Source of the DNA: Squalus acanthias
Taxonomy: Eukaryota
Assembly (NCBI GenBank): GCA_030390025.1
Contig: CM059432.1
Location: 84,694,001-84,758,000, forward strand
Length of the DNA stretch: 64,000 bases
Direction: 5' to 3'
This document shows, in pieces, positions 1-57,693 of this stretch. A program made the position numbers and the translations under genes. Numbering within the stretch: position 1 is the first letter of the stretch; every line of letters begins with the position of its first letter. A model generated the notes under the pieces. That model saw nothing but the letters and a program-made list of their open reading frames with translations, ran no database searches and was not told the origin of the DNA.

Positions 1-3000
1 GTGGTATAAAGAGTGTGAGAGTGGGAACAGCGGAATAAAGAGCGCGAGAACGGGAACAGTGGTATAAAGAGCGCGAGAACGGGAACAGTGGTATAAAGAG
101 CGTGAGAGAGGGAACAGTGGAATAAAGAGCGCGAGAGTGGGAACAGCAGAATAAAGAGCGCGAGAGTGGGAACAGTGGAATAAAGAGCGTGAGAGTGGGC
201 ACAGTGGAATAAAGAAGGGAGAGAGGGAACAGCGGAATAAAGAGCGCGAGAGTGGGAACAGCGGAATAAAGAGCGGGAGAGTGGGAACAGTGGAATGAAG
301 AGCGTGAGAGTGGGAACAGTGGAATAAAGAGCGGGAGAGTGGCAACAGCGGAATAAAGAGCGCGAGAGTGGGAACAGCGTAATAAAGAGCGGGAGAGTGG
401 GAACAGCGGAATAAATAGCGCGAGAGCGGGAACAGTGGAATAAAGAGCGTGAGAGCGGGAACAGCGGAATAAAGAGCGGGAGAGCGGGAACAGCGGAATA
501 AAGAGCGAGAGCAGCGGGAACAGTGGAATAAAGAGCGCGAGAGTGGGAACAGTGGAATGAAGAGCGTGAGAGTGGGAACAGTGGAATAAAGAACGGGAGA
601 GTGGGAACAGCGAAATAAAGAGCGCGAGAGTGGGAACAGCGGAATAAAGAGCGCGAGAGTGGAAACAGCGGAATAAAGAGCGCGAGAGTGGGAACAGCGG
701 AATAAAGAGCGCTGAGAGCGGGAGCAGCGGAATAAAGAGCGCGAGAGTGGGAACAGCGGAATAAAGAGCGCGAGAGCGGGAACAACGGTATAAAGATCGG
801 GAGAGCAGGAACAGCGGAATAAAGAGCGTGAGAGTGGGAACAACGGTATAAAGAACGTGAGAGTGGGAACATTGGTATAAAGAGCGCGAGAGCGGGAACA
901 GCGGAATAAAGAGCGTGAGAGTGGGAACAGCAGAATAAAGAGCGCGAGAGCGGGAACAGCGGAATAAAGAGCGCGAGAGCGGGAACAGCGGAATAAAGAG
1001 CGGGAGAGTGGGAACAGCAGAATAAAGAGCGGGAGAGCGGGAACAGTGGTATAAAGAGCGTGAGAGTGGGAACTGCAGAATAAAGAGTGGGAGAGCGGGA
1101 ACAGTGGAATAAAGAGCGTGAGAGTGGGAACAGTGGTATAAAGAGCGGGAGAGCGGGAACTGTGGAATAAAGAGCGTGAGAGTGGGAACAGCAGAATAAA
1201 GAGCGGGAGAGCGGGAACAGCGGAATAAAGAGCGTGAGAGCGGGAACAGTGGTATAAAGAGCGCGAGAGTGGGAACAGTGGAATAAAGAGTGGGAGAGCG
1301 GGAACAGCGGAATAAAGAGCGTGAGAGTGGGAACAGTGGAATAAAGAGTGCGAGAGCGGGAACAGCGGAATAAAGAGTGCGAGAGCGGGAACAGCGGAAT
1401 AAAGAGCGCGAGAGCGGGAACAGCGGAATAAAGAGTGCGAGAGTGGGAACAGCGGTATAATGAGCGCGAGAGCGGGAACAGCGGAATAAAGAGCGGGAGA
1501 GCGGGAACAGTGGAATAAAGAGCGGGAGAGCGGGAACAGTGGAATAAAGAGCGCCAGAGCGGGAACAGCGGAATAAAGAGCGGGAGTCGGAGCAGCGGTA
1601 TAAAGAGCGCGAGAGCGGGAACAGTGGAATAAAGAGCGTGAGAGTGGGAACAGCGGAATAAAGAGCGCGAGAGCGGGAACAATGGTATAAAGAGCGTGAG
1701 AGTGGGAACAGCAGAATAAAGAGCGGGAGAGTGGGAACAGCGGAATAAAGGGCGGGAGAGTGGGAACAGTGGAATAAAGAGCGCGAGAGTGGGAACAGTG
1801 GTATAAAGAGTGTGAGAGTGGGAACAGTGGAATAAAGAGCAGGAGAGTGGGAACAGTGGAATAAAGAGCGCGAGAGCGGGAACAACGGTATAAAGATCGG
1901 GAGAGCAGGAACAGCGGAATAAAGAGCGTGAGAGTGGGAACAACGGTATAAAGAACGTGAGAGTGGGAACAGTGGTATAAAGAGCGGGAGATCGGGAACA
2001 GCGGAATAAAGAGCGTGAGAGTGGGAACATTGGTATAAAGAGCGCGAGAGCGGGAACAGCGGAATAAAGAGCGTGAGAGTGGGAACAGCAGAACAAAGAG
2101 CGCGAGAGCGGGAACAGCGGAATAAAGAGCGCGAGAGCGGGAACAGCGGAATAAAGAGCGGGAGAGTGGGAACAGCAGAATAAAGAGCGCGAGAGCGGGA
2201 ACAGTGGTATAAAGAGCGTGAGAGTGGGAACTGCAGAATAAAGAGTGGGAGAGCGGGAACAGTGGAATAAAGAGCGTGAGAGTGGGAACAGTGGAATAAA
2301 GAGCGTGAGAGTGGGAACAGCAGAATAAAGAGCGCGAGAGTGGGAACAGCGGAATAAAGAGCGTGAGAGTGGGAACAGCAGAATAAAGAGCGGGAGAGCG
2401 GGAACAGCGGAATAAAGAGCGTGAGAGTGGGAACAGTGGAATAAAGAGTGCGAGAGCGGGAACAGCGGAATAAAGAGCGCGAGAGCGGGAACAGCGGAAT
2501 AAAGAGTGCGAGAGTGGGAACAGCGGTATAATGAGCGCGAGAGCGGGAACAGCGGAATAAAGAGCGGGAGAGCGGGAACAGTGGAATAAAGAGCGGGAGA
2601 GCGGGAACAGTGGAATAAAGAGCGCCAGAGCGGGAACAGCGGAATAAAGAGCGGGAGTCGGAGCAGCGGAATAAAGAGCGCGAGAGCGGGAACAGTGGAA
2701 TAAAGAGCGTGAGAGTGGGAACAGCGGAATAAAGAGCGCGAGTGCGGGAACAGCGGTATAAAGAGCGTGAGAGTGGGAACAGCAGAATAAAGAGCGGGAG
2801 AGTGGGAACAGCGGAATAAAGAGCGGGAGAGTGGGAACAGTGGAATAAAGAGCGCGAGAGTGGAAACAGTGGTATAAAGAGTGTGAGAGTGGGAACAGCG
2901 GAATAAAGAGCAGGAGAGTGGGAACAGTGGAATAAAGAGCGCGAGAGCGGGAACAACGGTATAAAGATCGGGAGAGCAGGAACAGCGGAATAAAGAGCGT

Positions 3001-5068
3001 GAGAGTGGGAACAACGGTATAAAGAACGTGAGAGTGGGAACAGTGGTATAAAGAGCGGGAGATCGGGAACAGCGGAATAAAGAGCGTGAGAGTGGGAACA
3101 GCAGAATAAAGAGCGCGAGAGCGGGAACAGCGGAATAAAGAGCGCGAGAGCGGGAACAGCGGAATAAAGAGCGGGAGAGTGGGAACAGCAGAATAAAGAG
3201 CGCGAGAGCGGGAACAGTGGTATAAAGAGCGTGAGAGTGGGAACTGCAGAATAAAGAGTGGGAGAGCGGGAACAGTGGAATAAAGAGCGTGAGAGTGGGA
3301 ACAGTGGTATAAAGAGCGGGAGAGCGGGAACAGTGGAATAAAGAGCGTGAGAGTGGGAACAGCAGAATAAAGAGCGGGAGAGCGGGAACAGCGGAATAAA
3401 GAGCGTGAGAGCGGGAACAGTGGTATAAAGAGCGGGAGAGCGGGAACAGCGGAATAAAGAGCGTGAGAGTGGGAACAGTGGAATAAAGAGTGCGAGAGCG
3501 GGAACAGCGGAATAAAGAGTGCGAGAGCAGGAACAGCGGAATAAAGAGCGTGAGAGCGGGAACAGCGGAATAAAGAGTTTGAGAGTGGGAACAGCGGTAT
3601 AATGAGCGCGAGAGCGGGAACAGCGGAATAAAGAGCGGGAGAGCGGGAACAGTGGAATAAAGAGCGCCAGAGCGGGAACAGTGGAATAAAGAGCGCCAGA
3701 GCGGGAACAGCGGAATAAAGAGCGGGAGTCGGAGCAGCGGTATAAAGAGCGCGAGAGCGGGAACAGTGGAATAAAGAGCGCGAGAGCGGGAACAGCGGTA
3801 TAAAGAGCGTGAGAGTGGGAACAGCAGAATAAAGAGCGGGAGAGTGGGAACAGCGGAATAAAGAGCGCGAGAGTGGGAACAGTGGAATAAAGAGCGCGAG
3901 AGTGGGAACAGTGGTATAAAGAGTGTGAGAGTGGGAACAGCGGAATAAAGAGCGGGAGAGTGGGAACAGTGGTATAAAGAGCGTGAGTGGGAGCAGCGGA
4001 ATAAAGAGCGGGAGAGTGGGAACAGCGGAATAAAGAGCGCGAGAGTGGGAACAGCGGAATAAAGAGCGGGAGAGCGGGAACAGCGGAATAAAGAGCGGGA
4101 GAGCGTGAACAGTGGTATAAAGAGCGCGAGAGCGGGAACAGTGGTATAAAGAGTGTGAGAGTGGGAACAGTGGAATAAAGAGCGCGAGAGCGGGAACAGT
4201 GGAATAAAGAGCGCGAGATCGGGAACAGTGGAATAAAGAGCGCGAGAGCGGGAACAGTGGAATAAAGAGCGCGAGAGCGGGAACAGTGGTATAAAGAGCG
4301 CGAGAGCGGGAACAGTGGTATAAAGAGCGCGAGAGCGGGAACAGCGGAATAAAGAGTGTGAGAGTGGGAACAGCGGAATAAAGAGCGCGAGAACGGGAAC
4401 AGTGGTATAAAGAGCGCGAGAACGGGAACAGTGGTATAAAGAGCGTGAGAGTGGGAACAGTGGAATAAAGAGCGCGAGAGTGGGAACAGTGGAATAAAGA
4501 GCGTGAGAGTGGGAACAGTGGAATAAAGAGCGGGAGAGAGGGAACAGTGGAATGAAGAGCGTGAGAGTGGGAACAGTGGAATAAAGAGCGGGAGAGTGGG
4601 AACAGCGGAATAAAGAGCGCGAGAGTGGGAACAGCGGAATAAAGAGCGGGAGAGTGGGAACAGTGGAATGAAGAGCGTGAGAGTGGGAACAGTGGAATAA
4701 AGAGCGGGAGAGTGGGAACAGCGGAATAAAGAGCGCGAGAGTGGGAACAGCGGAATAAAGAGCGGGAGAGTGGGAACAGCGGAATAAATAGCGTGAGAGC
4801 GGGAACAGTGGAATAAAGAGCGTGAGAGCGGGAACAGCGGAATAAAGAGCGGGAGAGCGGGAACAGCGGAATAAAGAGCGAGAGCAGCGGGAACAGTGGA
4901 ATAAAGAGCGAGAGCAGCGACACAAAGAGCGCCGAGAGCAGGAGCAGCGGTAGAAAGAGCGCCGATAGCGGGAGCAGCGGCACAAAGAGCGCCGAGAGCG
5001 GGAGCAGCGGTATAAAGAGCGCCGAGAGCGGAAGCAGCGGTATAAAGAGCGCCGAGAGCGGAAGCAGC
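1..5068. repeat. 29-bp tandem satellite (consensus AGAG(C/T)GGGAACAG(C/T)GG(A/T)ATAAAGAGCG(C/T/G)G), about 170 units, ending in about five 30-bp variant units; runs off the window start
   Basis: Unit spacing read directly (e.g. AGAGC at 241 and 270). Units become AAAGAGCGCCGAGAGCGGGAGCAGCGGTAT from about 4925. Confidence 0.98.
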
Positions 5069-7377
5069 ATGAGAAGGACCAGACCTGGTGGGGGCACAGC
5101 GAAAGCAAGCAGTTAAAAGGAGCAGTCCCGAGCAGCAGCAACTCAACAGAGGCAGGTTTTGAAAAAGTGACGTTGGCACAAGGGAAGGAGCTGATTGGTG
5201 AGTAGCTGGTGAGTGTATTTTGATTTAAGTTTTTAGTTTATTTCTGCTAAGTTAGTTAATAGCTTATTAAATAGAGGGAAAGAGCTGATTGGTGAGTAGC
5301 TGGGGAGTGTTTTTTGTTAAGTTTTAAGTTTATTTCTGCTGGGTTAGATTTTTGTCCATTAACGAGAGGTATGGCAGGGCAGCTTCATCCCGTGGAGTGC
5401 ACATCCTGTGCCATGTGGGAAGTCCTGGACACTTCGCATTGAAGGGATAATTACCAGTCCTAGCCCTTTTTGAGCTACCCCAGATCAGGCGTATTCCCCA
5501 GACATTCACCTTCAACTAAAGTTAGCGATAGCCGAATCCTACAGATGCTTAATTGGGTCTAAAGGTCAGACTACCTCTCCCTAAAGGAAAGGAACGGCCT
5601 GAAGATGTTACCGTCCTCTGGATAGCACTTTTAACAAGTTTTGTAGGCTTCGCAAAATTCCCCAGAAACTCGAACAGAACCCTAAAGGGGGTGATTTTTG
5701 GATTTTTATACGAATTTGGAATGATGGGACCTAAATGAAGGAATTTGAGGTGAAAACCCCAGTTTCGGACATTTTTAAGGATCAGGGAAGAAAAACCCTG
5801 AGGAAAATGACTTTGGAAAAATACTATACCTTTAAAAGGGCCATTAGGAAAGCCTGCAGTCACAGAAACTCCACAGGCTGCAGGAAAGGGTGTGGTGAGG
5901 CAGTGGACAGCTTTTGGATATTGGGACCGAGCCAAGCTGTCTGGGAGATGTGTGCACTGCAATCCAACCAAGGAGGAAGAGCCTCACCCAAAACCTCACA
6001 TACACATCCAAAAATGAATAATCCAAGACCCCTTTTGAAATCCCCAGGCCCAAACAGGATGCTAGAAGCCTGAAAACAATAAAACATCCAGTACACCTAT
6101 TACCCCATCAAAAACCAATTAGCCAAGTATCTACAGGGACAGATTAACAAGCCCGCCAAAAACCTAAGACAAAAGGGGCGAGATTTGGCGCGTAGATAAA
6201 GGCCCTGCCTAAATGGATGACATCGGAAGCCATCAGGACAAGTAAACATAAAATTAAACCCATCAAACTTAACGAGCCTGCCAAAACCTAAGACAAAAGA
6301 ATGAACAGGCCTCAACTGAAACCTAAATCACTTCAACACGAAACCGATTTAGTAAAGCGCTTTTGGCACGAAAAATACACTGGGCCTGAACGGTATAATT
6401 GAGGGCCTATTCCCCCAGCAAACACAGCAAGTTACTCACTGCTACAGGAGCCACACAACACGAGCAAGAGGAGGAGAGAAGCAGCAAGGCCATGAGGCAG
6501 ACCCGGGGCGAGATCGGAGGCAGGGACAGACAAGGCCAGGCAAGGGCTAGAGCTGACACCACTGGGAGCGAGTCGGCATCGCTCAGTACACGGTCCAGCA
6601 CTAACAGCCACTAGCCAAGGTCACTGGAGGCTGGGAGCAAGTCGGCATCGCTCAACCCACGGTCCAGCCCCAGGAGGTACCGCCCCGACAGGCCTCCAAC
6701 GCAACAAATCGACCACTAGAGCCACCAAGGGCTCCACGAGGTAGACCGCCACTCAAAAGTACCACATGGACCAAGGCCCCGTGCAACGACCAACCACCAG
6801 GCAACCATGACCTAAATCAGCCAACCAGGGGAAACCTGAACAAACGCCAACCCTACAACTACTCCTGGCTTACCCCTGGGTAAGACTTGCATGCAAAGAC
6901 TCTAAACCTACAGCTAGAAGCAAAGAAATCGGGTACTTACCTGATAAATCCACAACTGTGCCTTACCGCATCTGCGGACTCCACCTGACCGAGGAGCCTT
7001 TGCAGATTCCACAGACCGGTACCATGTGGGGACGGCAGGCCCCAAAGGACACAAAGAGAGTACCCCAAAAACGCAATCAACTTACCTGGCTGGATTTCGA
7101 ACTGTCAAAACCCCTGTTTGGTGATCATTATCCCTGATCTCCTGAAACAAAAACTTAGCTAGACAATGGGATTTTGGGAGGGATAAGGGTTTTTGTAGAT
7201 TGTAAGGGGGAAAAATTCAGTTGGTTGCGCCTCCCGTTAGCGCCTTAAGAGGGCGCTAATGGGGCGCAAAGCAGCTCGCGCCCGGGCGCAGCGATGTTTG
7301 CACTGCTCGCGAACTTAACTAGACATTTTGTGGCGGCGCTAAACTTTATCGCCGCGATCTCCTGCGCGCGCAGATTG

Positions 7378-7500
7378 TGACGTCATACGAGAGTGCAACG
7401 CCCTTGTGGCGCCCCCATCCTTACCGCCTGGCGCATCCAACGACCGGTAGAGTGGAACGCTATCAATCGCTGTGGGGCTGGGGGGGGGCGCTATTTAAAG
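7378..7500 (+). promoter_or_regulatory. Putative transposase promoter: CRE palindrome TGACGTCA (7378-7385) and TATA-like TATTTAAAG (7492)
   Basis: Motifs lie about 200-310 bp upstream of the ATG and are kept in related copies (33389, 50344, 56960). Confidence 0.5.
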
Positions 7501-7692
7501 GGGGCCTCTTCCTGTCTTTCTCTGTGGTTGACATTTTTGCACCACTCGTTCTGAGAGAGAGAGAGAGATTCGGAGAGAGAGAAAGAGAGACTTCTGCATT
7601 GAGTCAACGCTGTGTGAGGTAGTTTTGGCTACTCATCCTAACTTCGCTGGTACTTTGGTTTCTGGCCTTCATAACTTTGCTTGCTAAGAGAT

Positions 7693-8723
7693 ATGGGGGC
7701 TGCACTGATGGGGGGCGTCGTCCTGCGCCAGCTGAATCGGAGGAGACAGAGACGCAGAGAGAGAGTGGCAATGATGGCCAGACGGAGGAGGGCCAACAGG
7801 CGTCTGTACAGGAGAGCTTACCCTCCCAGGGTATATCGTGAACAGCTCTCCTACATTCATATGTCTGAGGAGCAGTGTCTGCGAAGGCTGTGCTTCAGCA
7901 GGGAGGTGGTCACTGAGCTCTGCCACCTGCTGCAGCCAGATCTGCAGCCTCAACTGAGGTCCAGGACGTCTCTGTCGGTGGCAGTGAAGGTCACAGTGGC
8001 TCTGAACTTTTATGCTACTGGCTCATTTCAATCTGCTGTTGGGGACATCGCCAATATCTCCCAGTTCGCGGTGCATTGCTGCATCCGGAAGGTCACAAAT
8101 GCCCTCTTTAAAAGGAGACGAGAGTTCATCTCTTTCCCCATGACCCCAGACAAGCAGCAAGAACGCGCTCTGGGCTTTGCGAGGATAGCGGGCTTCCCCA
8201 TGGTGCAGGGCGCCATTGACTGCACGCATGTGGCTTTGCATGCTCCGCATGAGAATGCCGAGGATTTCCGGAACAGAAAGGGGTTCCATTCCTTGAATGT
8301 TCAGTTGGTCTGTGACCACAGACAGCTGATACTCGCTGTCAATGCCCAGTATCCTGGCAGCTGCCACGATGCTTTCATCCTGCGCCAGACTACTGTGGCA
8401 GAACTTTTCGAGGCACCGCATCAGCCAGTTGGTTGGCTTCTCGGGGACAAGGGGTATCCACTGAGCACCTGGCTGATGACACCGCTCCGTACGCCCAACA
8501 CCCCTGCTGAGCTGCGGTACAACGAGAGCCATCAAGCTACCAGGAACATCGTGGAGCACACAATCGGCGTGCTCAAGCAACGGTTCCGCTGTCTCGACCA
8601 TTCGGGAGGAGCCCTGCAGTACTCGCCTGAGCGAGTTTCCAACATCGTAGTTGTGTGCTGCATGCTGCATAACATGGCAATCCTCAGGACCCAGCCAATG
8701 CCACCAGGCCTTGGAGCACCACC

Positions 8724-8754
<31 letters not shown>

Positions 8755-8853
8755 GAGGAGGATGATCAGCAGCAGCACCAAGGCGTGAGGGCGGCCCACA
8801 ATGGTGAAACTGCAAGGGCCGTCCGTCAGCGGCTGATAGCAAGCCGCTTCTAG
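7693..8853 (+). CDS. Harbinger (HARBI1-like) DDE transposase, 386 aa
   Basis: Uninterrupted ORF with GAIDCTH, GDKGY and VEHTIG catalytic motifs, NRKGFHSLNVQLVCD, CCMLHN, an Arg-rich N-terminus and a poly-Glu tract near the C-terminus. First ATG at 7693. Confidence 0.95.
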
Positions 8854-9164
8854 GCCCCTGCTGTGGAAATGGCTTCTGCCATTGAGAACAGCATGAATGA
8901 ACCCAACACGCAACCCCTAAGCCGGCCAAGGCACCAATGATTCCAAACACCAAACATGTATATTTTGAGTACCAAAACTTATTTATTTTACAAACTCTGT
9001 GTGTGTCATTTCTTCATGACAAACTCATACAAATAAACACAAAAAAACAGTCATTACCGTAACTGGTTCTCACAACCTGGAGATCATGTGCAAAACACTC
9101 AACAAAAGTTTGACCACGAACCTCGGCCTTTAATAAAAAAATGACCAACATTTTGTCACAGCTC

Positions 9165-10954
9165 CTACATCGAGGGTGAACTCCTTCCCGTGCGCCCTTC
9201 CCCCCTTCTTACCCTACTGCTCCTCCGCAATGGGACCTCAGTGGCTGCAGCAAGGCTGGTGGAAGGCTGCTGACTGTCAGGCCCTGACAATGCAGATGCC
9301 CTTGAGGGACGGCCTCGACCAGTTCTGGGCCTGGAGGGCCCGGCTGCAGACTGCACCAACTCTGCATGGGCGGCAGCAGTCTGTCCTACAGGCGGTGGCA
9401 ACTGCAGTGGAGAAGTGACAGTGGTGGCAGCAGGAATGCTGTCATCTTGAGCGAGGACAGCAACTCCCTGCTCGACCGGCACACTGGCACTCCCACGGGG
9501 CAGCACCTCAGCATCCGGAGCAATCTGCTGGAGCACAGATTGCTGGCCTGCTGCGGCGCGGTGAGAGCCCCGGGGAAATGTGAACGAACCAGCGAGGATG
9601 GCAGCAGACAGTGCTCGCGTGGCCTCAATCTGAGTCTGCATGAGAGCAGTCTGAGATTGAATTGCAGCACTGAGCTTCAGTGTCGCATCCGCCTGCGCTG
9701 CAGCGAAGTGCTCCACACTCCTTGCCAGTGCTTCAATGCATTTGGGCACCCTACCCACTGCAGCCATGAGCTCAGTGTGCATGCCCACCGCCTGGGTGTT
9801 CATTTCCGCGATCAGCCGCTCCTCCTCTGCGTCCAGTGCAGCAGGACTCGCTGGCATATTCTCCCTCCGGGGAGAAGGCCCCCGAGCTTCCCTACCCCCA
9901 TCGCGTTGCTGCAGCCCGCTGGGTCCTGGAGCTTCACCCTCATCAGACCCTTCCCCCCTGCTCCCCTCCAGGGAAGGCGTGTTCCCAGTGTCGGCATGGG
10001 CTTCCTCGGGAGAGGGAGGCACTGATGCTCCGGCTTCCTCTTCCTCCTCGGCTGCAGCTTCACTCCCACTGGCAGCTTCAGGGCCCGTCTCCTCAGCTGG
10101 TGAATCACCATCTGAAAGCAGGGAGGTACAAGAGTGGCTTTAGCGTGAGGACAGGCTGGCAGTAAGGGAGGAATAAGTGCAGCGAGTTAGTAAGTTGGAT
10201 TGAAAGTGTCAAAGGCTGGTGTTGTGAGGGACAAGTGGAAGGACAGAGGACAAAAAGGTGATGACCTTACCATTGCTGTCCAGAACGGGGTCGGCGTCTC
10301 CAGTGGCGACGGGACCGATCACCCGGCTTGCCACAATCCTGTGGATGCACTCCTCAAGATCGCTGAGGGGTTGCAGCTGAGGCCGCCCTCCACCTGTCCG
10401 TTGCTGCTGTCTCCTATTATGCGCCAGCTTGGCCTGCAAGAAAAAGGACGGCGTCTGAGTAAATATACAGCCATGGTCTTGCCTGATGTGCCTCCCATAG
10501 GTGAATAGCCCTTACTGTATGCAGCCATGGTCTTGCCTGATGTGCCTCCCATAGGTGAATAGCCCTTACTGTATGCAAAGTATGGAATGTGTGTGTGTGC
10601 TTCATGAAAGGGCCATAGGTGTTGGATGAGTGTTGTTAATTGTGGTTTTAAGACCCTCTGGCCATAGAGTGAGGTTGAGATGGAGGGATGGAGAGGTATT
10701 GCAAAAAAGCCACTCACCCTGATGACCCGAGTGAGGTCGTTGAACTTTTTCCGGCATTGGACATCGGTCCTGGGCACCATGCTCCTGGAGGAGACGCGCT
10801 GAGCCACCTCCCTCCACACTCTTCTGTAGTCGCGCGGCAAAGGCCTCCTGCCACTCTCTGGGTACAGTATTGCTCTTCGACGCTCCACCGCGCCAACCAG
10901 AGCATCCAAGGCCCGCTCGGTGAAGCGCTCAGCTCGTTCTCTCGCCCTCTCCAT
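9165..10954 (-). CDS. Harbinger Myb/SANT-like (NAIF1/MSANTD-type) DNA-binding protein, 3 exons: 10954-10718, 10433-10271, 10111-9165; 448 aa
   Basis: Exon 1 encodes RF..E.L..LV..V, W.EVA and QCRKKFNDL. Donors GTGAGT and GTAAGG, acceptors TTGCAG and TTTCAG. Lengths 237+163+947=1347 nt stay in frame, and the same splice sites recur in copy 2. Confidence 0.88.
10469..10575. repeat. 54-bp tandem duplication inside intron 1 of the Myb gene
   Basis: AGCCATGGTCTTGCCTGATGTGCCTCCCATAGGTGAATAGCCCTTACTGTATGC is present twice here but once in copy 2 (about 53783-53836). Confidence 0.9.
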
Positions 10955-13347
10955 CCTTGGCTGGAAATGGAATCTCAGGTCTCTCCAGGTCGAGATTCAA
11001 GGCTGCAATGAGCAGGGTGTGGCTGGGGAGCAAGATCGCCCCCCCCTTTAAGAACTGGCCGGCGCCAGTGTGTCTGTGTTCCCTCGCTAACTGGCAGCAC
11101 CTGCGCTGCGCTCGCGCTCTGAGTTAGCGCCTCACTCCTCGGCCTTTGCGCCTTAAGACAGGTGTGCAGCACCTGATTTAGCGCTCCAATCACCTCCCGG
11201 GGCGTTAAAAGTGAAGTTTCCAGTCAGTGGCGATAATTAGCGCCAGGCGCTAATTTTTGCGCCCGGACGATATTTGCGCCCCAAACGGGGCGCGACTGAA
11301 TTTTTCCCCCATTATATTTTCAAAGCCTCTCTGTAGGTATATTTTACAACTTGTAAATTGAAAACACTTCTCTTAGGGTGTTTACTTGTTTTCTTGCTAT
11401 CTCAATTGGTTGCATATTTATTCGTGTTTCCTGTCTTATTTGATGTTACTTTATGAAGGCATATGGTTGTTTAAAGTTCTACGTTTCTGTTTCCCTGAGT
11501 GTTAGCTTATAACACTTTACTTGGGTCATTCCATTGTGTTTCTCCCAAACTCCAGACCTTCTGGAAGCGCCAATGGTTTGCTTCAATAGGGCCATTGTTT
11601 TTGTGTTTACAACCATCTCCCATTTCAAAGCTTGTGGTGTTTTACAGCTTTTGTGTTAACACTTCATCTTATCTCAGAAGCCTGTATTGTGTTTGCAGCC
11701 TGTGTCGCCAAGGCTTTCCAGACTTTTAAACTCAGTATGTCTTGTATTAATAATATAAGAAATCTGTTTATAGGATGATGTATTTCTTGGAATATGGCTT
11801 ATTCCATTACAGCATAGCCTGGACGACCACATGTGTGGGAAGTGTTGCCAGCTACAGCAACTCGAGCTCTGGGTTTTGGAGCTTGAGCGGCGACAGGAGT
11901 CACTGCGGTGCATCCGCGAGGCTGAGAGTTATGTGCATAGCATGTTTCTAGAGGTGGTCACCCCGCAGTATAAGGGTATGCAGGCAGAGAGGGAATGGGT
12001 GGCCGTCAGACAGAAGAGGAGGACCAGGCAGGTAGTGCAGGAGTCCCTGGAGTGCATCACGCTCTCCAACCAGTATGCTGTTCTGAGTACTGGTGAGGCG
12101 ATGGTTTCTCTGGGGAGTGCAGCCAGAGTCAAATCCATGGCACCACGGGTGGCTCAGCTGCACAGGGGGGGGAGGAAAAAGAGTGGAAGAGTAATAGTGG
12201 TATGGGATTCAATAGTTAGGGGAGCAGACAGGCGTTTCTGTGGCTGTAGACGTGACTCCAGGATGGTATGTTGCCTCCCTGGTGCCAGGGTCAAGGATGT
12301 CACTGAGCGGCTGCAGGACACTGATGGGGGAGGGTGAACAGCCAGAGGTCGTTGTCCATATCGGTACCAATGACATAGGCAGAAAGAGGGATGAGGACCT
12401 GCAGGCAGAGTTTAGGGAGCTAGGAGAGAGATTAAAAAGCAGGACCTCAAAGGTAGTAATCTCCGGATTACTCCCGATGCCACGTGAAAGTGAGTACAGA
12501 AATAGGAGGATAGATCAGATGAATGCGTAGCTGGAGAGATGGTGCAGGAGGGAGGGCTTTAGATTCCTGAGGCATTGGGACCATTTCTGGGGAAGGTGGG
12601 ACCTGTACAAGCCAGATAGGTTACACCTCAACAGAGTCGGGACCAATATTCTCGCGGGGAGGTTTGCCAGTGCTGTTGGGGAGGGTTTAAATTAGCTTGG
12701 CAGGGGGATGGGCACCAGCATATAGGAGTAGAAAAGAGGAATAAGGTGCATAAAAGAGTGATCGTGTGGGATAGTACTAGAGAAGATAGTACTAGAGGCG
12801 GTAGTAGTACCATATTAGATAGGAGCAGACTAAGACAGACTACAAAAAATTCAAAAATGGGTTTAGAATGCATGTATGTAAACGCACAAAGTTTGGTGAA
12901 TAAGGTTGGTGAGCTACAATCACAATTAGCCATGTGGCAATAAAATGTGGCAAAAACGGAAACGTGGCTTAAAAATGGTGAGGGCTGGGCACCTAATATT
13001 CAAGGGTACAAGGTGTTCAGAAAAGATAGGGAAGGAAAAAAGGGAGGTGGGGTGGTAGTGCTGATGAAGGAAAACATTGTACTGTTGGAAAGGGAGGGAG
13101 TTCTTGAGGGGACAAGGACAGAATCCATTTGGTTAGTGTTGAGCAAAAAGGGTATGATCACGCTATTGGGGGTATTCTATAGGCCTCCAAATAGTGAGAG
13201 GAAGGATGAGGAGCAAATCTGCAGGGAAATCACAGAGATATGCAAGAGCTATAGAGTGGTGATATTGGGGGACTTTAATTACCCAAATATCGATTGGGAT
13301 AATGCTAGGGTAAAGGGAAAGGATGGGGAAGAATTTCTGAAATGTGT

Positions 13348-13559: not shown

Positions 13560-14148
13560 GGGAGTGCTATTTAAAGGCGACCGCTTCCTGCCTTTTTTAG
13601 TTGGCGACATTTTTGCACCACACATTCTGAGAGAGAGAGAGAGACTTCTGGAGAGATTCAACGCTGTGTGAAGGAGTTTTGGGTACTGAGCAGCACTTTG
13701 CAGGTTCATTTTGATTTGACCTTCCTTGCATCGATTTAGAAGAGACTGTGGGGCTGCACTCTGAGCTCTTTCCCTGGTCCTCTCCATTGTTCTTTCCAGC
13801 AAATTTGATGTACAGGTCTCTCCAGGCCAAGATTCAAGGCTGCAATGAGCAGGGTGTGGATGGAGAGCAAGATCGGCCCTCCCCTTTAAGAACTGGCCGG
13901 CGCCAGTGTGTCTGTGTTCCATTGCTGACTGACATCACATGAGCTTCGCCAGCGCTCTGTGGTAGCGCCTCGCTCCTCAGCGTTAGCGCCTTAAGAGAGG
14001 TGTGTAGCGCCTGATTTAGCACTCCAATCACCTCCAGGGGCGATAGAAGCCAAGTTTGCAGTTGAAGGCGATAAGTAGCGCCAGGCACTAAACTTTGCGC
14101 CCGGCCAATAATTGCACCCCAAACGGGGCGATATCGAATTTCTCCCCC
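13560..14148 (+). mobile_element. Truncated non-autonomous Harbinger (family A-related MITE), left end lost
   Basis: Similar to 7485-7705 joined to about 10930-11310. Ends GAATTTCTCCCCC and has the same internal junction as 32675-33568. Confidence 0.9.
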
Positions 14149-14368: not shown

Positions 14369-14781
14369 CCTGGTATCTGTGCACCCTGGATTGACTGATG
14401 TTGTTGATATTCCCTGTGGTGCCTTTGAATGAGCCTGAAGGATGAAAGCTCAGGGTTGTGGTCAACTTCACTACCAGTGGCAGTGTCACTCCTGTGGTGG
14501 AGGTTGCTTGCTGGCCTGATTCAAGCAAATGGTACAACGGTGTCATTAGCTGCCTGCTGAAGCAGAGCCTGCAGAGGTGGGTTTCCTTAGACATTCTCAT
14601 AGAAGTGTAACTGGATCAATAGACATAAAGGAAAGTACAGGCAGTCCACCTCTGGTGTAAGCAAACCTGCTTTGCATCCCTCCTTTTATCCTCTTCTTCC
14701 TTCTCTTTAATAATACAGGAAGAGAAGAATCTCATTGGAATTCCTACATCCAGAATTTTGATTGTAGCAATGATAAATCTT

Positions 14782-16258: not shown

Positions 16259-16830
16259 AGATACTACATTGGTACCTGTTGAATCAGTAGCCATACGTGA
16301 GAAGCAACACATGACTGAGCACTATCTACCATCATTCTCATTTGAGGTAGGAAAGGTAGCAGTGCTATTGGATGATGAAATGAAAGCCCTGCATACCGAA
16401 TGGCCCTAGTCAGTTGTGTGGAGATACTTTCTTTGAAGTGGATGCTTCTGTAGCAGCAGGTCCATATTAAGAAGCCACTTCCACCTTCCTTATACAACAT
16501 AGGAAAATGGTTAGTATAGTATGGAGGGATCCAATACCCACATATGCACTGCCATCACCTAAAAGAAGCTAGGCTCCTATTATCCCAAATGGTTATGGAT
16601 GATAGGACAATTGGAGCTTCCAAGACTGAGATACATAGATTTTTGTTAGGTGAGGATATCAAGAGATATGGAAGGCGGGTAAATAATTGAGGTGCAGATC
16701 AGCCAACACTGTACTCGCACAGAGTTGCCATAAATGGAGTGCATTGCAAACAGTGTGTAAAAGATGAGAATTTGGTGAGAGTGGGAATTTGGTGCAGAGG
16801 AGGAAGGAGGTGCTGCTTTCTGCCTTCAAT

Positions 16831-32674: not shown

Positions 32675-33568
32675 GGGGTAGAAATTAGGTCGCGCTCCAT
32701 TTGGGGCGCAAATATCGTCCGGACGCAAATATTAGCGCCTGGCGCTAATTATCGGCACTGACGGGAAACTTCACTTTTACCGCCCCGGGAGGTGAGTGGA
32801 GCGCTAAAGCAGGCGCTGCACACCTCTCTTAAGGCGCAAAGGCCGAGCAGTGAGGCGCTAACTCGGAGCGCTGGCGAAGCTCATGTAATGTCAGTCAGCA
32901 ATGGAACACACACACAATGGCACGGGCCAGTTCTTAAAGGGGATGGTTAATCTTGCTTTCCATCCACATCCTGCTCATTGCTGCCTTGAATCTCGGCCTG
33001 GAGAGACTTGCACATCAAATGTGCTGGAAAGAACAATGGAGAGCACCAGGCAAAGAGCTCAGAGTGCAGCTCCCACGGTCTCTGCTAAATCGATACAAGG
33101 AATGGCAAATCAAAATGAACCTGCAAAGTGCTGCTCAGTACCCAAAACTCCTTCACACAACGTTGAATCTCTCCAGAAGTCTCTCCCTCTCTCTCTCAGA
33201 ATGCGTAGTTCAAAAATGCCACCAACAATAAAAGACAGGAAGAGGCCCCCTTTAAATAGCGCCCCCCCCCAGCCCCACAGCGATTGATAGCGTTCCAGTC
33301 TTCTGGTCGTTGGAAGCGCCAGGCGGTAAGGCAGGGGGCGCCACTCAATTTCTGCTACGGGGCGCCCCAAGGGCGTTGCACCATGGAATGACGTCACAAT
33401 CTGCGCGCGCAGGTGGTCGCAGCGGTAAGTTTTAGCGCCGCCGCACAATCTCAAGTTAAGTTCTCGAGCGGCGCAAACATCGCTGCGCCCGGGCGTTAGC
33501 GGCTTTGCGCCCCATTAGCGCCCTCTTAAGGCGCTAATGGGTGGCGCAACCAAGTGAATTTTTACCCC
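32675..33568 (-). mobile_element. Complete non-autonomous Harbinger (family A-related), 894 bp
   Basis: TIRs GGGGTAGAAATT / AATTTTTACCCC and TSD TAT; the host CR1 rejoins as TACTCTATGCCTCTATT. Confidence 0.93.
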
Positions 33569-39997: not shown

Positions 39998-40135
39998 TTC
40001 TGATGAAGGGTCCCAGACCTGAAAAGTTAACTCTGTTTCTCTCTCCACGGATGCTGCCTGGCCTGCTGAGTATTTCCAGCATTTTCTGTTGTTATTTCAG
40101 ATTTCCAGCATCCGCAGTATTTTGCTATTGTATTA
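39998..40135 (+). mobile_element. Mini Penelope pLTR insertion (hammerhead plus 3' terminus)
   Basis: TTCTGATGAAGGGTCCCAGACCTGAAAAGTTAACT... flanked by TATTAAATGTTG at 39986-39997 and 40131-40142. Confidence 0.85.
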
Positions 40136-40300
40136 AATGTTGGTGTTCAGAGAGATTTAGGTGTCCTCGTACAGGAAACACAAAAAGTTAGCACGCAGGT
40201 ACAGCAAGCAATTAGGAAGGCAAATGGCATGTTGGCTTTTATTGCAAGGGGGTTGGAGTACAAGAGTAAGGACATCTTTCTAAAATTGTACAGGGCTTTG

Positions 40301-46201: not shown

Positions 46202-46289
<88 letters not shown>

Positions 46290-52800: not shown

Positions 52801-53406
52801 TGACAGTTTTACCTCAACTGCACTTTCTCCCCCGATCCATCTTTGTTCAGTCCTCAAGCATGACCCTGAGCTTTCGGTCCATCAACCAGGATGAAACATT
52901 ACTCCATGGACTTGCGCTTCAGTTTTCCAATTTAACTTTGAGAGATGGAAAGCTGGACAGGGAGCTATCCTGCTGGGTTTCCACGTATTCTTACTCAAAA
53001 ATGGGTTGGTCTTTTTCAAGTAAGGCAGTAACGATGAAGTGATTTTGGGGGAAAAATTCAGCATCGCCCGTTTGGGGCGCGATTATCGGCCGTGCGCAAA
53101 GTTTAGCGCCTGGCGCTAATTATCGCCTCCGACTGCAAACTTGGCTTTTATCACCCCTGGAGGTGATTGGAGCGCTAAATCAGGTGCTACACACCTGTCT
53201 TAAGGCGCAAAGGCCGAGGAGCGAGGCGCTAACTCAGAGCGCGGGCACAGCGCAGGTGCTGTCAGTTAGCGATGGAACACAGACACACTGGCACCGGACA
53301 GTTCTTAAAGGGGAGGGTCGATCTTGCTCTCCAGCCACACCCTGCTCATTGGAGCCTTGAATCTCGGCCTGGAGAGACCTGTGCCTAAATCTTGCAGCCA
53401 AGGACA

Positions 53407-55159
53407 ATGGAGAGGGCCAGGGAGCGAGCACATCACTTCAGCGAGCGGGCCTTGGAGGCTCTGGTTGGCGCGGTGGAGCGCAGAAGATCAATACTGTACC
53501 CAGAGAGTGGCAGGAGGCCTTTGCCGCGCGATTACAGAAGAGTGTGGAGGGAGGTGGCACAGAGCGTCTCCTCCAGAAGCGTGCCCAGGACCCATAAACA
53601 ATGTAGAAAAAAGTTCAACGACCTCACTCAGGTCGTCAGGGTGAGTGGCTTTTTTTCAAGAACCTCTCCATCCCTCCATCTCAACCTCACTCTATGGCCA
53701 GAGGGCCTTAAAACCCCAATGCCCAACACTCATCCAACAGCTATGGCCCTCTCATGAAACACACATGCACATTCCAAACTTTGCATATAGTAAGGGCTAT
53801 TCACCTATGGGAGGCACATCAGGCAAGATCATGGCTGTATATTTACTCAGACGCCGTCCTTTTTCTTGCAGGCCAAGCTATCTCATAATAGGAGACAGCA
53901 GCAACGGACGGGTGGAGGGCGGCCTCAGCTGCAACCCCTCAGCGATCATGAGGAGCGCGTCAAGAGGATTGTGGCAAGCCGGGTGATCGGTCCCGTCGCC
54001 ACTGGAGAGGCCGACCCCGTTCTGGAGAGCAATGGTAAGGTCATCACCTTTTTGTCCTCTCTCCTTCCACTTGTCCCTCACAACACCAGCATTTGACACT
54101 TTCAATCCAACTTACTAAATCACTGCACTCATTCCTCCCTTACTGCCACCCTGTCCTCACGCTAAAGCCACTCTTGTACCTCCCTGCTTTCAGATGGTGA
54201 TTCACCAGCTAAGGAGACGGGCCCTCAAGCTGCCAGTGGGAGTGAAGCTGCAGGCGTGGTGGAAGTTGAAGCCGGAGCATCAGCGCCACCCTCTCCCGAG
54301 GAAGCCCATGCCCACACTGGAAACACGCCTTCCCTGGAGGGGAGCAGGGGGGAAGGGTCTGATGAGGGAGAAGCTCCAGGACCCAGCGGGCTGCAGCAAC
54401 GTTATGGGGGTAGGGAAGCTTGGGGGCCTTCTCCCCGGAGGGAGAGTATGCCAGTGAGTCCTACTGCACTGGACTCAGAGGAAGAGCGGCTGATCGCTGA
54501 AATGTACACCCAGGCACACTGAGCTCATGGGTGCAGTGGGAAGGGTGCCTGAATGCATTGAATCACTGGCAAGGAGTGTGGAGCACTTCGCTGTAGCACA
54601 GGCGGATGCCACGCAACTGTTTAGTGCTGCAATTCAGTCACTGGCTGCCATGACCCCATCGCTGACTGCTCTCATGCAGACTCAGATTGAGGCCACGCGA
54701 GCACTGATTGCTGCCATCCTCGCTGGTTCGGACACATTTCCCCGGGGCTCTCACCGCGCCGCAGCAGTCCAGCAATCTGTGCTCCAGCAGATTGCTCCGG
54801 ATGCTGAAGTGCTGCCCCGTGGGAGTGCCAGTGTGTCGGTCGAGCAGGGAGTTGCTGTCCTCTCTCAAGATGACAGCATTCCTGCTGCCACCACTGTCAC
54901 TTCTCCACTGCACTTGCCACCGCCTGTAGGACAGACTGCTGCCGCCCATGCAGAGTTGGTGCAGTCTGCAGCCGGGCCCTCCAGGCCCAGATCTGGTCGA
55001 GGCCGTCCTTCAAGGGCATCTGCAGTCTCAGGTTCTGACAATCAGCAGCCTTCCAGCAGCCTTGCTGCAGCCACTGGGGTCCTATTACGGAGGAGCAGTA
55101 GGGTGGGAAGGGGGGAAGTGCGCAAGGGAAGGAGATCACCCTCGAAGGGCAAAAAGTAG
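53407..55159 (+). pseudogene. Myb/SANT gene of copy 2 (exons 53407-53640, 53872-54034, 54194-55159), frameshifted near 54515
   Basis: Same splice sites as copy 1; a deletion of about 10 bp produces TGA at 54520-54522. Confidence 0.87.
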
Positions 55160-55470
55160 GAGGTGTGACAAAATGTTGGTCATTTTTTTATTAAAGGCCG
55201 AGGTTCGTGGTCAAACTTGTGTTTAGTGTTTTGGACATTATCTCCAGGTTGTGAGAACCAGTTATGTTAATGACTGTGTTTTTGTGTTTCTTTCTATTAG
55301 TTTGTCATGAGGAAATGACACACACAGAGTTTGTAAAATAAATAAGTTTTTGTATTCAAAATGTACATGTTTGGTCTTTGCAATCATTGCTGCCTTGGCC
55401 GGCTTAGGGGTTGCGGGTTGGTTTCATTCATGTTGTTCTCAATGGCAGAAGCCATTTCCTCAGCAGGGGC

Positions 55471-56622
55471 CTAGAAGTGGCTTGCTATCAGCCGTTGACG
55501 GACGGCCCTTCCAGTTTCTACATTGTGGACCTCCCTCCCGCCTTGGTGCTGCTGATGATCATCCTCCTCCTCTTCCTCCTCCTCCTCCTCTGGTGGTGCT
55601 CCAAGGCCTGGTGGCATTGGCTGGGTCCTGAGGATTGCCAGGTTATGCAGCATGCAGCATACAACAACGAAGAGGGAGACTCGCTCAGGCGAGTACTGCA
55701 GGGCTCCTCCAGAATGGTCCAGACAGCGGAACCGTTGCTTCAGCACTCCGATTGTGTGCTCAACGATGTTCCTGGTAGCTAGATGGCTCTTGTTGTATCG
55801 CAGCTCAGCAGGGGTGTTGGGCGTACAGAGCGGTGTCATCAGCCAGGTGCACAGTGGATATCCCTTGTCCCCGAGAAGCCAACCACCTGGGTGATGCGGT
55901 GCCTGGAAAAGTTCTGCCACAGTAGTCTGGTGCAGGATGTATGCATCGTGGCTGCTGCCAGGATAGCAGGCATTGACAGCGAGTATCAGCTGTCTGTGGT
56001 CACAGACCAACTGTACGTTTAAGGAATGGAACCCCTTTCGGTTGCGGAAATCCTCGGCATTCTCATGTGGAGCACGCAAAGCCACATGCATGCAGTCAAT
56101 GGCGCCCTGCACCATGGGGAAGCCCGCTATCCTCGCAAAGCCAATAGCACGTTCATGCTGCTTGGCCGGGGTCATGGGGAAAGAGATGTACTCTCGTCTC
56201 CTTTTATAGAAGGCATTTGTGACCTGACGGATACAGCAATGGACCACGAACTGGGAGATATTGGCGACGTCCCCAGTAGCTGACTGAAATGAGCCGGTGG
56301 CATAAAAGTTGAGAGCCACTGTTAGCTTCACTGCCACCGACAGAGACGTCCTGCTCCTCAGTTGAGGCTGCAGATCTGGCTGCAGCAGGTGGCATAGCTC
56401 AGTGACCACCTCCTTGCTGAAGCGCAGCCTTTGCAAACACTGCTCCTCAGACATATTAATGTATGAGAATTGTTGGTGAAATACCCTGGGAGGGTAAGGT
56501 CTCCTGTACAGAGGCCTGTTGGCCCTCCTCCGTCTGGCCATGATTGCCACTCTCTCTCTGCGTCTCTGTGGCCTCCGATTCTGCTGGCGCAGGACGACGC
56601 CCCCAATCAGTGCAGCCCCCAT
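55471..56622 (-). CDS. Harbinger (HARBI1-like) DDE transposase, 383 aa
   Basis: Open ORF with GAIDCMH, GDKGY and VEHTIG; ATG chosen by homology to copy 1. Confidence 0.92.
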   Translation of the reverse strand: MGAALIGGVVLRQQNRRPQRRRERVAIMARRRRANRPLYRRPYPPRVFHQQFSYINMSEEQCLQRLRFSKEVVTELCHLLQPDLQPQLRSRTSLSVAVKLTVALNFYATGSFQSATGDVANISQFVVHCCIRQVTNAFYKRRREYISFPMTPAKQHERAIGFARIAGFPMVQGAIDCMHVALRAPHENAEDFRNRKGFHSLNVQLVCDHRQLILAVNACYPGSSHDAYILHQTTVAELFQAPHHPGGWLLGDKGYPLCTWLMTPLCTPNTPAELRYNKSHLATRNIVEHTIGVLKQRFRCLDHSGGALQYSPERVSLFVVVCCMLHNLAILRTQPMPPGLGAPPEEEEEEEEEDDHQQHQGGREVHNVETGRAVRQRLIASHF

Positions 56623-57693
56623 AGTCTCTTGGCAATCAAAGTAATGAAGGTCAAAAACCAAAGTACCTGCAAATTTATGCTCAGTAGCCAAAATTACTTC
56701 ACACAGCGTTGACTCAATGCAGAAGTCTCTCTTTCTCTCTCTCAAAATCTCTCTCTCTCTCTCTCAGAATGAGTGGTGCAAAAATGTCTACCACAGAGAA
56801 AGCCAGGAAGAGGGCCCCTTTAAATAGCGCCCCCCCCCCCAGCCCCACAGCGACTGGGAAGCGTTCCAGTCTACCTGTCGTTGGTTGCGCCAGGCGGAAA
56901 GGAGGGGGGCGCCACTCAATTTCCGTTCTGGGGCACCCCAAGGGTGTTGCACACTCGAATGACGTCAAGATCTGTGCGCGCAGGACATCGGGGCGGTACT
57001 GTTTAGCACCACCGCAAAATGTCCGGTCAATTTCGCGAGAGGCGCAGATATTGCCGCACCCGGGCGCTAGTTGCTTTGCGCCCCATTAGCGCCCTCTTAA
57101 GGCACTAATGGGAGGCGCAAACCAACTGAATTTTTCCCCCATTATATTTTAAATTTTCCATCATATCATCATAGCAACACTGGACATATGGAACACCAGC
57201 ATACAACAGACCCCCAGCATTGTCAGGACCAACAAAGACATTTTAAAAGTTCAAGGATGCACCTAAGGGAATGTATTTGATCATGTTAATCAATTCGCAC
57301 TGCCTCACTACCACTTTGTAGTTCATCTAACAGAGGCCAAATGCTTTTCTCTGCCCTAGAAGGGAGGACCGCTTTTAAGCTATTGCAGATGCCACTATCC
57401 CCTAAAGTGTAGGCTCCCAGCACACAGAAACCCTGCAAAAAATACATCAATTAAGATTGACCCTGGGAAATTCACCATGTTCAGTAGTACGACTGTTGGG
57501 AACGCGGATATCCTGCCATTCCAAACTTCTAGAGACATAGCCGCTAAAGTGCAACATTTGTACATTGTAAAATAAGACTGCGGCTTCTTTTTGAAAAGTG
57601 TTTTTATCCCAAGGTCTGGAAGGAAGTTTTAAAGGATCTCACTTCCTCTGACTCTATTTAGCCCTGTGTAAGTAGATTCCAGAATGATTCAAT

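What the first reader, a model, noticed from the sequence alone, without database searches (positions are those of the whole stretch)
7206..11310. Apparently intact two-gene Harbinger with a hidden three-exon Myb gene: candidate autonomous element
Seen: perfect TIRs, an open 386-aa transposase with its full D-D-E triad, and a partner gene that the ORF track shows only as fragments but which splices at canonical sites into one 448-aa ORF. Known: PIF/Harbinger mobility needs both proteins, and well-studied vertebrate copies are mostly decayed or domesticated (HARBI1, NAIF1). Inference: this may be a natural, mobilisable vertebrate Harbinger that drives the MITEs in this window.
Basis: partly seen in the sequence, partly recalled or inferred. 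Interest (0 to 1): 0.72.

Follow-up and report, generated by a model that had tools for sequence, protein, structure and literature searches.

The report
Intact but ageing shark Harbinger transposon
This is a complete copy of a known two-gene type of cut-and-paste jumping gene in a shark-like genome; both genes are still open and relatives of it are spliced in RNA data, but this copy has picked up its own mutations and nothing shows that it still jumps.

Summary
The anatomy is real: 16-bp perfect TIRs, an open 386-aa DDE transposase, and a three-exon, 448-aa Myb/SANT gene. The intron-2 junction appears exactly in contigs of both RNA-type runs laid and in neither DNA run. Intron 1 rests on homology only. 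Relatives are shark and ray proteins.

Present-day activity is not shown. The copy has no target-site duplication. It carries a private CpG-type R67C at an arginine kept in 56 of 66 homologs, a 24-bp subterminal deletion, and roughly 1% (at most about 2%) private divergence. The 894-bp MITE shares this copy's end type but is 12-13% diverged, so the subfamily probably moved it long ago.

Best reading: the best-preserved, ageing member of a large, transcribed shark Harbinger family. Intact, expressed vertebrate Harbingers are already published (269 intact copies in a sea krait). I found no characterised autonomous shark family and no native animal Harbinger shown to transpose. The scan noted other Harbinger families, with this target motif and Myb introns, elsewhere in this genome. 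New member of a known kind; the chance that its native proteins work is about 15-20%.

The parts
7206..11310 (.). Full-length Harbinger element (c1), 4105 bp, two convergent genes
   Evidence: Aligns end to end with c2 at 57140-53047, 88.7% by blastn
7203..7205 (+). Left flank triplet TAA; does not match the right flank ATT (no TSD)
7206..7221 (+). Left TIR, 16 bp, begins GGGGG
7237..7428 (.). Left subterminal array of an 8-bp motif (TTAGCGCC, either strand), 6 sites with at most 1 mismatch; candidate Myb-protein binding sites (inferred)
   Evidence: 6 in the first 250 bp, 9 in the last 250 bp, 1 in the 3.6 kb between
7405..7406 (+). 24-bp deletion in c1; the segment is present in c2 and in the 894-bp MITE
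7492..7499 (+). TATA-like word upstream of the transposase (motif match only)
7693..8853 (+). Transposase ORF, 386 aa, D176/D252/E288; private R67C (7891) and R183H (8240), both CpG-type
   Evidence: AlphaFold2 pLDDT 91
8854..9164 (.). Shared 3' region of the two convergent genes; AATAAA at 9032 and 9132 (+) and at 8982 (-)
9165..10111 (-). Myb-like gene exon 3 (947 nt); 9 nt shorter at the C-terminus than c2 and the RNA contigs
   Evidence: loose ends at 9168/9170
10112..10270 (-). Intron 2, 159 nt, GT..AG; spliced out in RNA-type contigs
   Evidence: joint 10111-10271 in X16 (3 contigs) and X17 (1 contig), 0 in X1 and X3
10271..10433 (-). Myb-like gene exon 2 (163 nt)
10434..10717 (-). Intron 1, 284 nt, GT..AG; holds a 54-bp tandem duplication (10464-10577) absent from c2
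   Evidence: junction supported by homology, not among the joints displayed
10718..10954 (-). Myb-like gene exon 1 (237 nt), Myb/SANT domain
   Evidence: PF13873 E 1.4e-9
11124..11280 (.). Right subterminal array of the same 8-bp motif, 9 sites
11295..11310 (-). Right TIR, 16 bp
11311..11320 (+). Right flank: triplet ATT, then a target half-site like those at other ends of the family
32675..33568 (-). 894-bp MITE of the same end class; TSD TAT confirmed by a paralogous empty site near 41160; its TIRs begin GGGGT
13560..14148 (+). Second, left-truncated MITE copy whose outer right end groups with c2
53047..57140 (-). Second full-length copy (c2): transposase open (383 aa, triad present), Myb gene frameshifted by an 11-bp deletion

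Best explanation
A full-length, autonomous-type PIF/Harbinger DNA transposon copy from a large shark family, with both reading frames open but already ageing. How the family works (from published PIF/Harbinger work, inferred here): the two genes are transcribed towards each other. The spliced Myb/SANT protein binds the repeated 8-bp subterminal motif, binds the DDE transposase and brings it to the nucleus and to the ends. The transposase cuts at the 16-bp TIRs and inserts into a 3-bp site within a loosely palindromic target. The same proteins move MITEs that carry these ends. Shown here: ends, frames, triad, motif arrays, a high-copy family, family-level removal of intron 2, past purifying selection on the transposase, and a shared end type with the 894-bp MITE. 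Inferred: this copy has sat in place long enough to gain about 1% private changes. At least one (R67C) probably impairs the transposase, so it is more likely a well-preserved relic than a current source. Its subfamily, not necessarily this copy, moved the MITE in the past.
For: No TSD, while the MITE and the sister-family copy at 43948-48017 keep theirs. Of 24 variant rows displayed inside the element, c2 carries the runs' letter at 22; the 17 coding ones are 13 non-synonymous to 4 synonymous, as neutral decay predicts (omega 1.07). R67C: Arg in 56 of 66 triad-keeping homologs, in c2 and in three outgroup copies. R183H: other letter in over 99% of laid depth in all four runs. c1-only sites are 6 of about 330 at the right end and 8 of 323 at the left, a ceiling near 2%. 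One private departure in 52 broadly conserved columns and 2 in 140 shark-set columns implies about 6-8 private amino-acid changes, about 0.9% (inference). Private indels: 24-bp subterminal deletion, 54-bp intron duplication. MITE ends differ from c1 by 11.9% and 12.8%, and the two MITEs differ from each other by 16%. Sharks mutate slowly (7e-10 per base per generation, PMC10587355), so open frames can persist.
Against: Intactness itself argues for youth: in simulation a neutrally decaying copy keeps both frames, the triad, splice sites and TIRs in only 29%, 8% and 2% of trials at 1%, 2% and 3% substitutions, and fewer with frameshifts. The c1 transposase branch shows purifying selection (14 S, 18 N, omega 0.40, p 0.012), so much of its divergence arose in an active lineage. 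c1 is second-closest to the shark-set consensus of 76 rows and has no private change in its outer 190 bp at the right end. The laid runs probably do not hold this locus (several sites show no contig with the window's letter), so the 'private' changes could be traits of a subfamily in the window's own species. The 24 variant rows come from the 40 shown of 389. The 21-bp gap in Myb exon 3 is shared with an outgroup copy, so it is not decay. No genome was available to count near-identical sisters.
Confidence: 0.68

Rival explanations
1. c1 is a member of a young, still-active subfamily; its differences from c2 and from the runs are subfamily traits, and its two proteins can mobilise elements with these ends today.
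For: Both frames, triad, splice sites and TIRs intact, which is unlikely beyond about 1-2% neutral decay; omega 0.40 on the transposase branch; confident fold; family RNA covers both genes and intron 2 is spliced; c1's outer ends share 13 informative sites with the MITE against 1 for the alternative grouping.
Against: No TSD; R67C at an 85%-conserved arginine; the Myb branch is neutral-like (5 S, 17 N, omega 1.18); no near-identical sister in the window; the best run holds 0.78 of its sampled words; the MITE is 12-13% diverged and has a different fifth TIR base at both ends.
Confidence: 0.18
2. The locus has been rearranged or is mosaic: c1's present flanks come from different original insertion sites, for example through an inversion between the inverted copies c1 and c2. 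The missing TSD then says nothing about age.
For: c1 and c2 carry the same 10 nt on their plus-strand right side. Swapping partners gives a perfect 10+10 palindromic site and lowers TSD mismatches from 4 of 6 to 2 of 6 bases. No joint from the left to the right flank is among those displayed in the DNA runs, although both flanks are repeats. The right ends are mosaic among the four copies.
Against: The family prefers such half-sites anyway. Neither swapped pair is a perfect TSD. Both ends of c1 group with the same MITE, so any crossover would have to lie at the very end or fully inside. No continuity across the swapped junctions could be shown.
Confidence: 0.2
3. c1 is being kept by host selection (incipient co-domestication of both genes).
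For: Both frames open; transposase omega below 1; cross-order conserved Harbinger-derived proteins exist in sharks and rays.
Against: TIRs and subterminal arrays are kept; the family is high-copy; c2, whose Myb gene is broken, shows the same transposase omega (0.44); the locus lies in a nest of transposon debris; the closest database protein is only 67% identical.
Confidence: 0.04

Closest known systems
Harbinger3_DR / Harbinger3N_DR of zebrafish (reconstructed; Sinzelle et al. 2008, seen only through passages of PMC3016246, PMC2836001 and PMC9710019; primary paper not held)
   Same: DDE transposase plus Myb-like partner; short subterminal motif repeated at both ends (9 bp there, 8 bp here); extended palindromic target whose half-site resembles those at several ends here.
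   Different: That element was rebuilt from consensus and shown active in human cells; its central triplet is CWG. Here the triplets seen are TAT, AGA, ATT, TCA and ACA, the copy is natural, and activity is untested.
Harbinger-Snek of sea kraits (PMC8437027; parts 1-2 of 4 of the main text read)
   Same: Natural vertebrate two-gene Harbinger with intact copies (269 in Laticauda colubrina, 1 in L. laticaudata), RNA-seq over both genes, and non-autonomous derivatives.
   Different: Recent horizontal arrival in snakes. The family here falls in a shark-and-ray clade and is held by runs of nine organism labels at shares of 0.34 or more. Sequence relationship to Harbinger-Snek not tested.
PHIS groups PIF/Harbinger, NuwaI and NuwaII (PMC4482050; passages)
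   Same: Two ORFs, short TIRs starting with G, about 4.1-4.7 kb, 3-bp TSD; 'potentially active' is defined there by two intact ORFs (88, 11 and 22 families).
   Different: The groups are defined by TSD (TWA, CWG, C|TNA|G); the triplets seen here fit none cleanly. TIRs starting GGG resemble NuwaI.
Ping/Pong with mPing of rice (PMC2836001; passages)
   Same: Two-protein requirement and a MITE partner sharing the ends.
   Different: [quoted passage not shown] The MITE copies here are 16% apart at the right end.
Harbingers of coelacanth, newt and teleosts (PMC3787270, PMC5741667, PMC9179366; passages)
   Same: Abundant vertebrate Harbingers; expression reported in newt and in four fishes including medaka gonads.
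   Different: PMC9179366 found none in elephant shark and asked for other cartilaginous fishes to be examined. Shark genome papers only list the superfamily.

Membership tests
PIF/Harbinger (PHIS) two-gene transposon | DDE_Tnp_4 transposase with D-D-E triad | tested here: met
   PF13359 E 6e-42; D176, D252, E288 in the homologous columns
PIF/Harbinger (PHIS) two-gene transposon | Second gene with a Myb/SANT domain | tested here: met
   PF13873 E 1.4e-9; gap-free alignment across the exon 1/2 junction to P0009, 43% over 112 aa; intron 2 joint in RNA-type contigs
PIF/Harbinger (PHIS) two-gene transposon | Short TIRs, usually starting with G or A | tested here: met
   16 of 16
PIF/Harbinger (PHIS) two-gene transposon | 3-bp target-site duplication, family level | tested here: met
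   MITE TAT/TAT with paralogous empty site; sister-family copy AGA/AGA
PIF/Harbinger (PHIS) two-gene transposon | 3-bp target-site duplication at this copy | tested here: not met
   TAA versus ATT; c2 has TTT versus ATT. This lowers 'fresh insertion', not family membership
PIF/Harbinger (PHIS) two-gene transposon | Subterminal repeats bound by the Myb protein | tested here: inconclusive
   8-bp motif enriched at both ends (15 of 16 sites in the terminal 500 bp); binding not testable here
NuwaI / Harbinger3_DR group | CWG TSD | tested here: not met
   Triplets seen at family and sister-family ends: TAT, AGA, ATT, TCA, ACA
NuwaI / Harbinger3_DR group | TIR begins GGG; extended palindromic target | tested here: inconclusive
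   GGG start met; a similar half-site at 5 ends, not at the MITE or at c1's left end; small sample; no tree with named NuwaI sequences
PIF/Harbinger group in the narrow sense | TWA TSD | tested here: not met
   The one proven TSD is TAT
Currently active autonomous element | Near-identical sister copies or insertion polymorphism | tested here: inconclusive
   No sister closer than about 8% in the window; no genome held; the laid runs probably lack this locus
Currently active autonomous element | Transcript from this very copy | tested here: inconclusive
   Longer RNA-type contigs differ from c1 by 3.0% (X17, 5 records) and 5.7% (X16, 5 records), so they come from relatives
Currently active autonomous element | Excision and integration in an assay | not testable with these tools
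   bench test
Domesticated Harbinger gene pair (HARBI1/NAIF1-like) | Single copy, TIRs and TSD lost, conserved synteny | tested here: not met
   TIRs present, second copy in the window, very high depth in DNA runs; synteny not tested

The most novel reading that the evidence does not exclude
The two proteins exactly as encoded by c1, or by near-identical sisters in its genome, still catalyse transposition. This would be a native, unreconstructed animal two-gene Harbinger shown to be active, a cut-and-paste element with demonstrated activity from a cartilaginous fish, with an AT-centred palindromic target and a natural MITE substrate. I found no such case in searches; the 2024 survey of 130 DNA transposons in human cells was seen only as a citation and could hold one.
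Probability: 0.18. Interest if true: 0.58.

Novelty: new member of a known kind. Interest (0 to 1): 0.28.

Why it matters
If the native proteins work, this gives a natural animal Harbinger system for studying the two-protein mechanism, for which no solved structure was found, and a tool with a long target preference. Even if inactive, it documents a large, spliced, two-gene Harbinger family in a shark-type genome, answering a gap named in PMC9179366. It also shows that in slowly mutating sharks open reading frames are weak evidence of current activity. As a kind of system it is ordinary.

Tried and rejected
No own genome is held, so copy number, consensus and near-identical sisters could not be counted. 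Run search: no RNA holder listed on record as RNA; five rows are guessed RNA. The intron-1 joint (10433/10718) is not among the 15 joints shown of 64, and one X16 contig (10612-10858) reads through that donor; this neither shows nor excludes splicing. No empty-site joint (7205 to 11311) is among the rows shown; uninformative, because the runs probably lack this locus. Depth was not used as a copy number. Metagenome scans with the transposase (622 pattern matches, 0 confirmed) and with a 23-nt subterminal word (0) found nothing. Myb exon 1 search among longer proteins: 1 hit of 483 candidates. PDB by sequence: 2 weak hits driven by the acidic tract. Foldseek: 0 matches at E 0.001; the weaker rows are mostly integrases and DDE transposases, so R67 could not be placed against DNA. 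Rejected as decay: the 21-bp gap in Myb exon 3, because the outgroup copy lacks those residues too. Downgraded: R183H, because the column is variable in the broad set. Parsimony assigned position 183 to c2 because two of three outgroup copies share the CpG change; I followed the runs instead. Sinzelle 2008 and Smith 2012 are not held. Supplements of PMC4482050 and PMC8437027, and Repbase or Dfam shark entries, were not seen and may already hold this family. Look-ups of earlier findings by sequence and nearby place were empty.
Full report
Observation. The element spans 7206-11310 and ends in 16-bp perfect inverted repeats. A second full-length copy lies inverted at 57140-53047 (c2, 88.7% by blastn), which fixes the ends. 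The plus-strand ORF 7693-8853 gives 386 aa, matches DDE_Tnp_4 at E 6e-42 and has D176, D252 and E288. The minus-strand exons 10954-10718, 10433-10271 and 10111-9165 join at GT..AG introns of 284 and 159 nt into 448 aa; exon 1 matches Myb_DNA-bind_5. The flanks, which it did not mention, are TAA and ATT: there is no target-site duplication.

Host and family. Of the 120 proteins listed (404 found), 115 carry shark or ray names; the best is 67% identical. In a tree of 30 chosen database proteins plus c1 and c2, the two copies are sisters inside a well-supported clade of shark and ray proteins that also holds one row without an organism name. Twenty of 24 listed runs hold part of the element, under nine organism labels at shares of 0.34-0.78. 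In the two DNA runs laid, summed depth over the element is about 2-18 x 10^5 against 0.2-4 x 10^4 in the flanks, while the single contigs listed have depth 15-230; this shows a high-copy family but is not a copy number. The window holds at least five further Harbinger copies or fragments and two MITEs among LINE debris.

The hidden gene. In one search the joint 10111-10271 (159 nt skipped, GT..AG on the minus strand) appears in X16 (3 contigs, depth 336) and X17 (1 contig, depth 622), two runs of different studies guessed to be RNA, and in neither DNA run. The tool marks the letters between as 'not known'. The intron-1 joint is not among the 15 joints shown of 64, and one X16 contig reads through that donor. 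Intron 1 is supported by homology: database protein P0009 aligns without a gap across the junction (43% over 112 aa), and all four splice sites are kept in c2 and in the sister-family copy at 43948-48017, which is 66-78% identical. The longer RNA-type contigs differ from c1 by 3.0% and 5.7%, so they report relatives, not this locus. Several sites show no contig with the window's letter (for example 7001, 9859, 11421, 11475), so these runs probably do not contain this locus, and polymorphism could not be tested.

Mechanism. From passages of PMC2836001 and PMC9710019: both proteins are needed; in zebrafish Harbinger3_DR the Myb protein binds a 9-bp subterminal motif, binds the transposase and is needed for its nuclear location. 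Here an 8-bp motif occurs 6 times in the first 250 bp, 9 times in the last 250 bp and once in the 3.6 kb between (at most 1 mismatch), and it is shared by c2, both MITEs and the sister family. I infer that it is the Myb site. The genes converge on a 311-bp region with poly(A)-type words on both strands. The MITE has a proven TAT duplication (empty paralogous site). Five ends show a half-site like that of the Harbinger3_DR target, but the central triplet is not CWG, so the PHIS subgroup (PMC4482050) stays open. AlphaFold2 gives a confident model (pLDDT 91); no solved structure matches at E 0.001.

Is this copy young? For: it is second-closest to the shark-set consensus among 76 well-covered rows. 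Its transposase branch shows purifying selection (14 S, 18 N, omega 0.40, p 0.012). Against: no TSD. At 22 of 24 displayed variant sites inside the element c2 sides with the runs, and the 17 coding sites split 13 N to 4 S as neutral change predicts (these come from 40 of 389 rows, kept by support). The Myb branch is neutral-like (5 S, 17 N). R67C is a CpG-type change at an arginine found in 56 of 66 triad-keeping homologs, in c2 and in three outgroup copies. R183H is absent from over 99% of laid depth, though that column varies in distant homologs. c1 also has a 24-bp deletion 200 bp from the left end, a 54-bp duplication in intron 1, a Myb C-terminus 9 nt shorter than c2's, and one base fewer just before the transposase ATG. 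c1-only sites at the ends are 1.8% and 2.5%, a ceiling. Departures at conserved columns (1 private of 52; 2 private of 140) imply about 6-8 private amino-acid changes, near 1% (inference). With the epaulette shark rate of 7e-10 per base per generation (PMC10587355, passages; a borrowed rate, and CpG-rich DNA changes faster), 1% is millions of generations. I could not separate private decay from traits of a subfamily in the window's own species, because no genome is held.

The MITE claim. Over the outer ends c1 groups with the 894-bp MITE and c2 with the truncated MITE at 13560-14148 (13 informative sites against 1 at the right end; 28 sites set c2 apart at the left). So c1's subfamily is the likely partner of that MITE. 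But the MITE has 21 and 23 changes of its own per end, differs from c1 by 12-13%, and begins GGGGT at both ends. It is an old insertion or a separately evolved lineage; 'drives' is at best past tense.

Missing TSD. c1 and c2 share the same 10 nt on their plus-strand right side. Swapping flanks yields a perfect palindromic site and fewer TSD mismatches, which hints at an inversion between the inverted copies. The family's target preference could give the same picture, and no continuity across the swapped junctions was found. This is unresolved, and it weakens the TSD as evidence of age.

Comparison and novelty. Intact natural vertebrate Harbingers are known: 269 intact copies in Laticauda colubrina, and RNA-seq over both genes in L. 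laticaudata (PMC8437027, parts 1-2 of 4 read). There are 88, 11 and 22 two-ORF 'potentially active' families in three PHIS groups, the NuwaI ones mostly from bony fish (PMC4482050, passages). Harbingers are expressed in newt and fishes and make up 9% of insertion polymorphisms in carp (PMC13583293, passages). For sharks I found only repeat-table mentions (PMC12498223, PMC8455134; passages) and a statement that elephant shark lacks them; searches showed no characterised shark family. The animal Harbinger shown active was reconstructed, and PMC2836001 (2010) named only Ping and Pong as naturally active; searches showed no native animal case, but the library lacks most subscription papers. Earlier notes of this scan describe other Harbinger families, the target motif and the Myb introns in this genome; they are unchecked leads that agree with what I tested.

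Verdict. Real, correctly described, and a new member of a known kind. Most likely a well-preserved relic of an active-type family (0.68); current competence about 0.18. Interest 0.28.

Noticed in passing
window 53047-57140: Second full-length copy, inverted: open 383-aa transposase with the triad, Myb gene broken by an 11-bp deletion. It could in principle be complemented in trans by c1's Myb protein.
   Followed up: yes
window 11311-11320 and 57141-57150: c1 and c2 have the same 10-nt plus-strand right flank; swapped flanks form a perfect palindrome. Possible inversion of the 42 kb between them, or strong target preference.
   Followed up: partly
window 10981-11310 versus 32675-33004, 13819-14148, 53047-53376: Right ends are mosaic: inner sites (11023-11113) group the two full copies against the MITEs, outer sites (11134-11294) mostly group c1 with the 894-bp MITE and c2 with the other MITE. 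Suggests exchange of ends between autonomous and non-autonomous lineages.
   Followed up: partly
proteins P0022/P0023/P0067, P0040/P0043, P0010/P0013, P0004/P0005: Four clades of database 'HARBI1-like' proteins are 84-90% identical across distant sharks and rays, and several lack catalytic residues: candidate domesticated Harbinger transposase genes of sharks and rays. Synteny not checked.
   Followed up: partly
window 35560-52020: Dense nest of decayed Harbingers of other families: a full-length copy at 43948-48017 (TSD AGA), fragments at 35658-35897, 38000-39800, 48206-50524 and 51267-52019, and a lone end at 42166.
   Followed up: partly
window 6-5075: 5-kb tandem array of a 29-bp unit (175 copies, 88% matches) that runs into a CR1-like LINE 5' end (class recalled from motif).
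   Followed up: no
window 5420-7140: Unclassified repeat left of c1, with two minus-strand splice-donor words (6936, 7081); covered by contigs of all four runs, with no Harbinger protein match.
   Followed up: partly
window 14379-14729: Fragment of a more distant Harbinger transposase N-terminus on the minus strand (33% to c1).
   Followed up: no
window 16828-17543 and 58856-59571: 716-bp repeat pair, 89% identical, inverted, unclassified.
   Followed up: no
protein P0009: Database gene model that fuses Harbinger Myb exons to a transposase; may be a mis-joined prediction or a real fusion.
   Followed up: no
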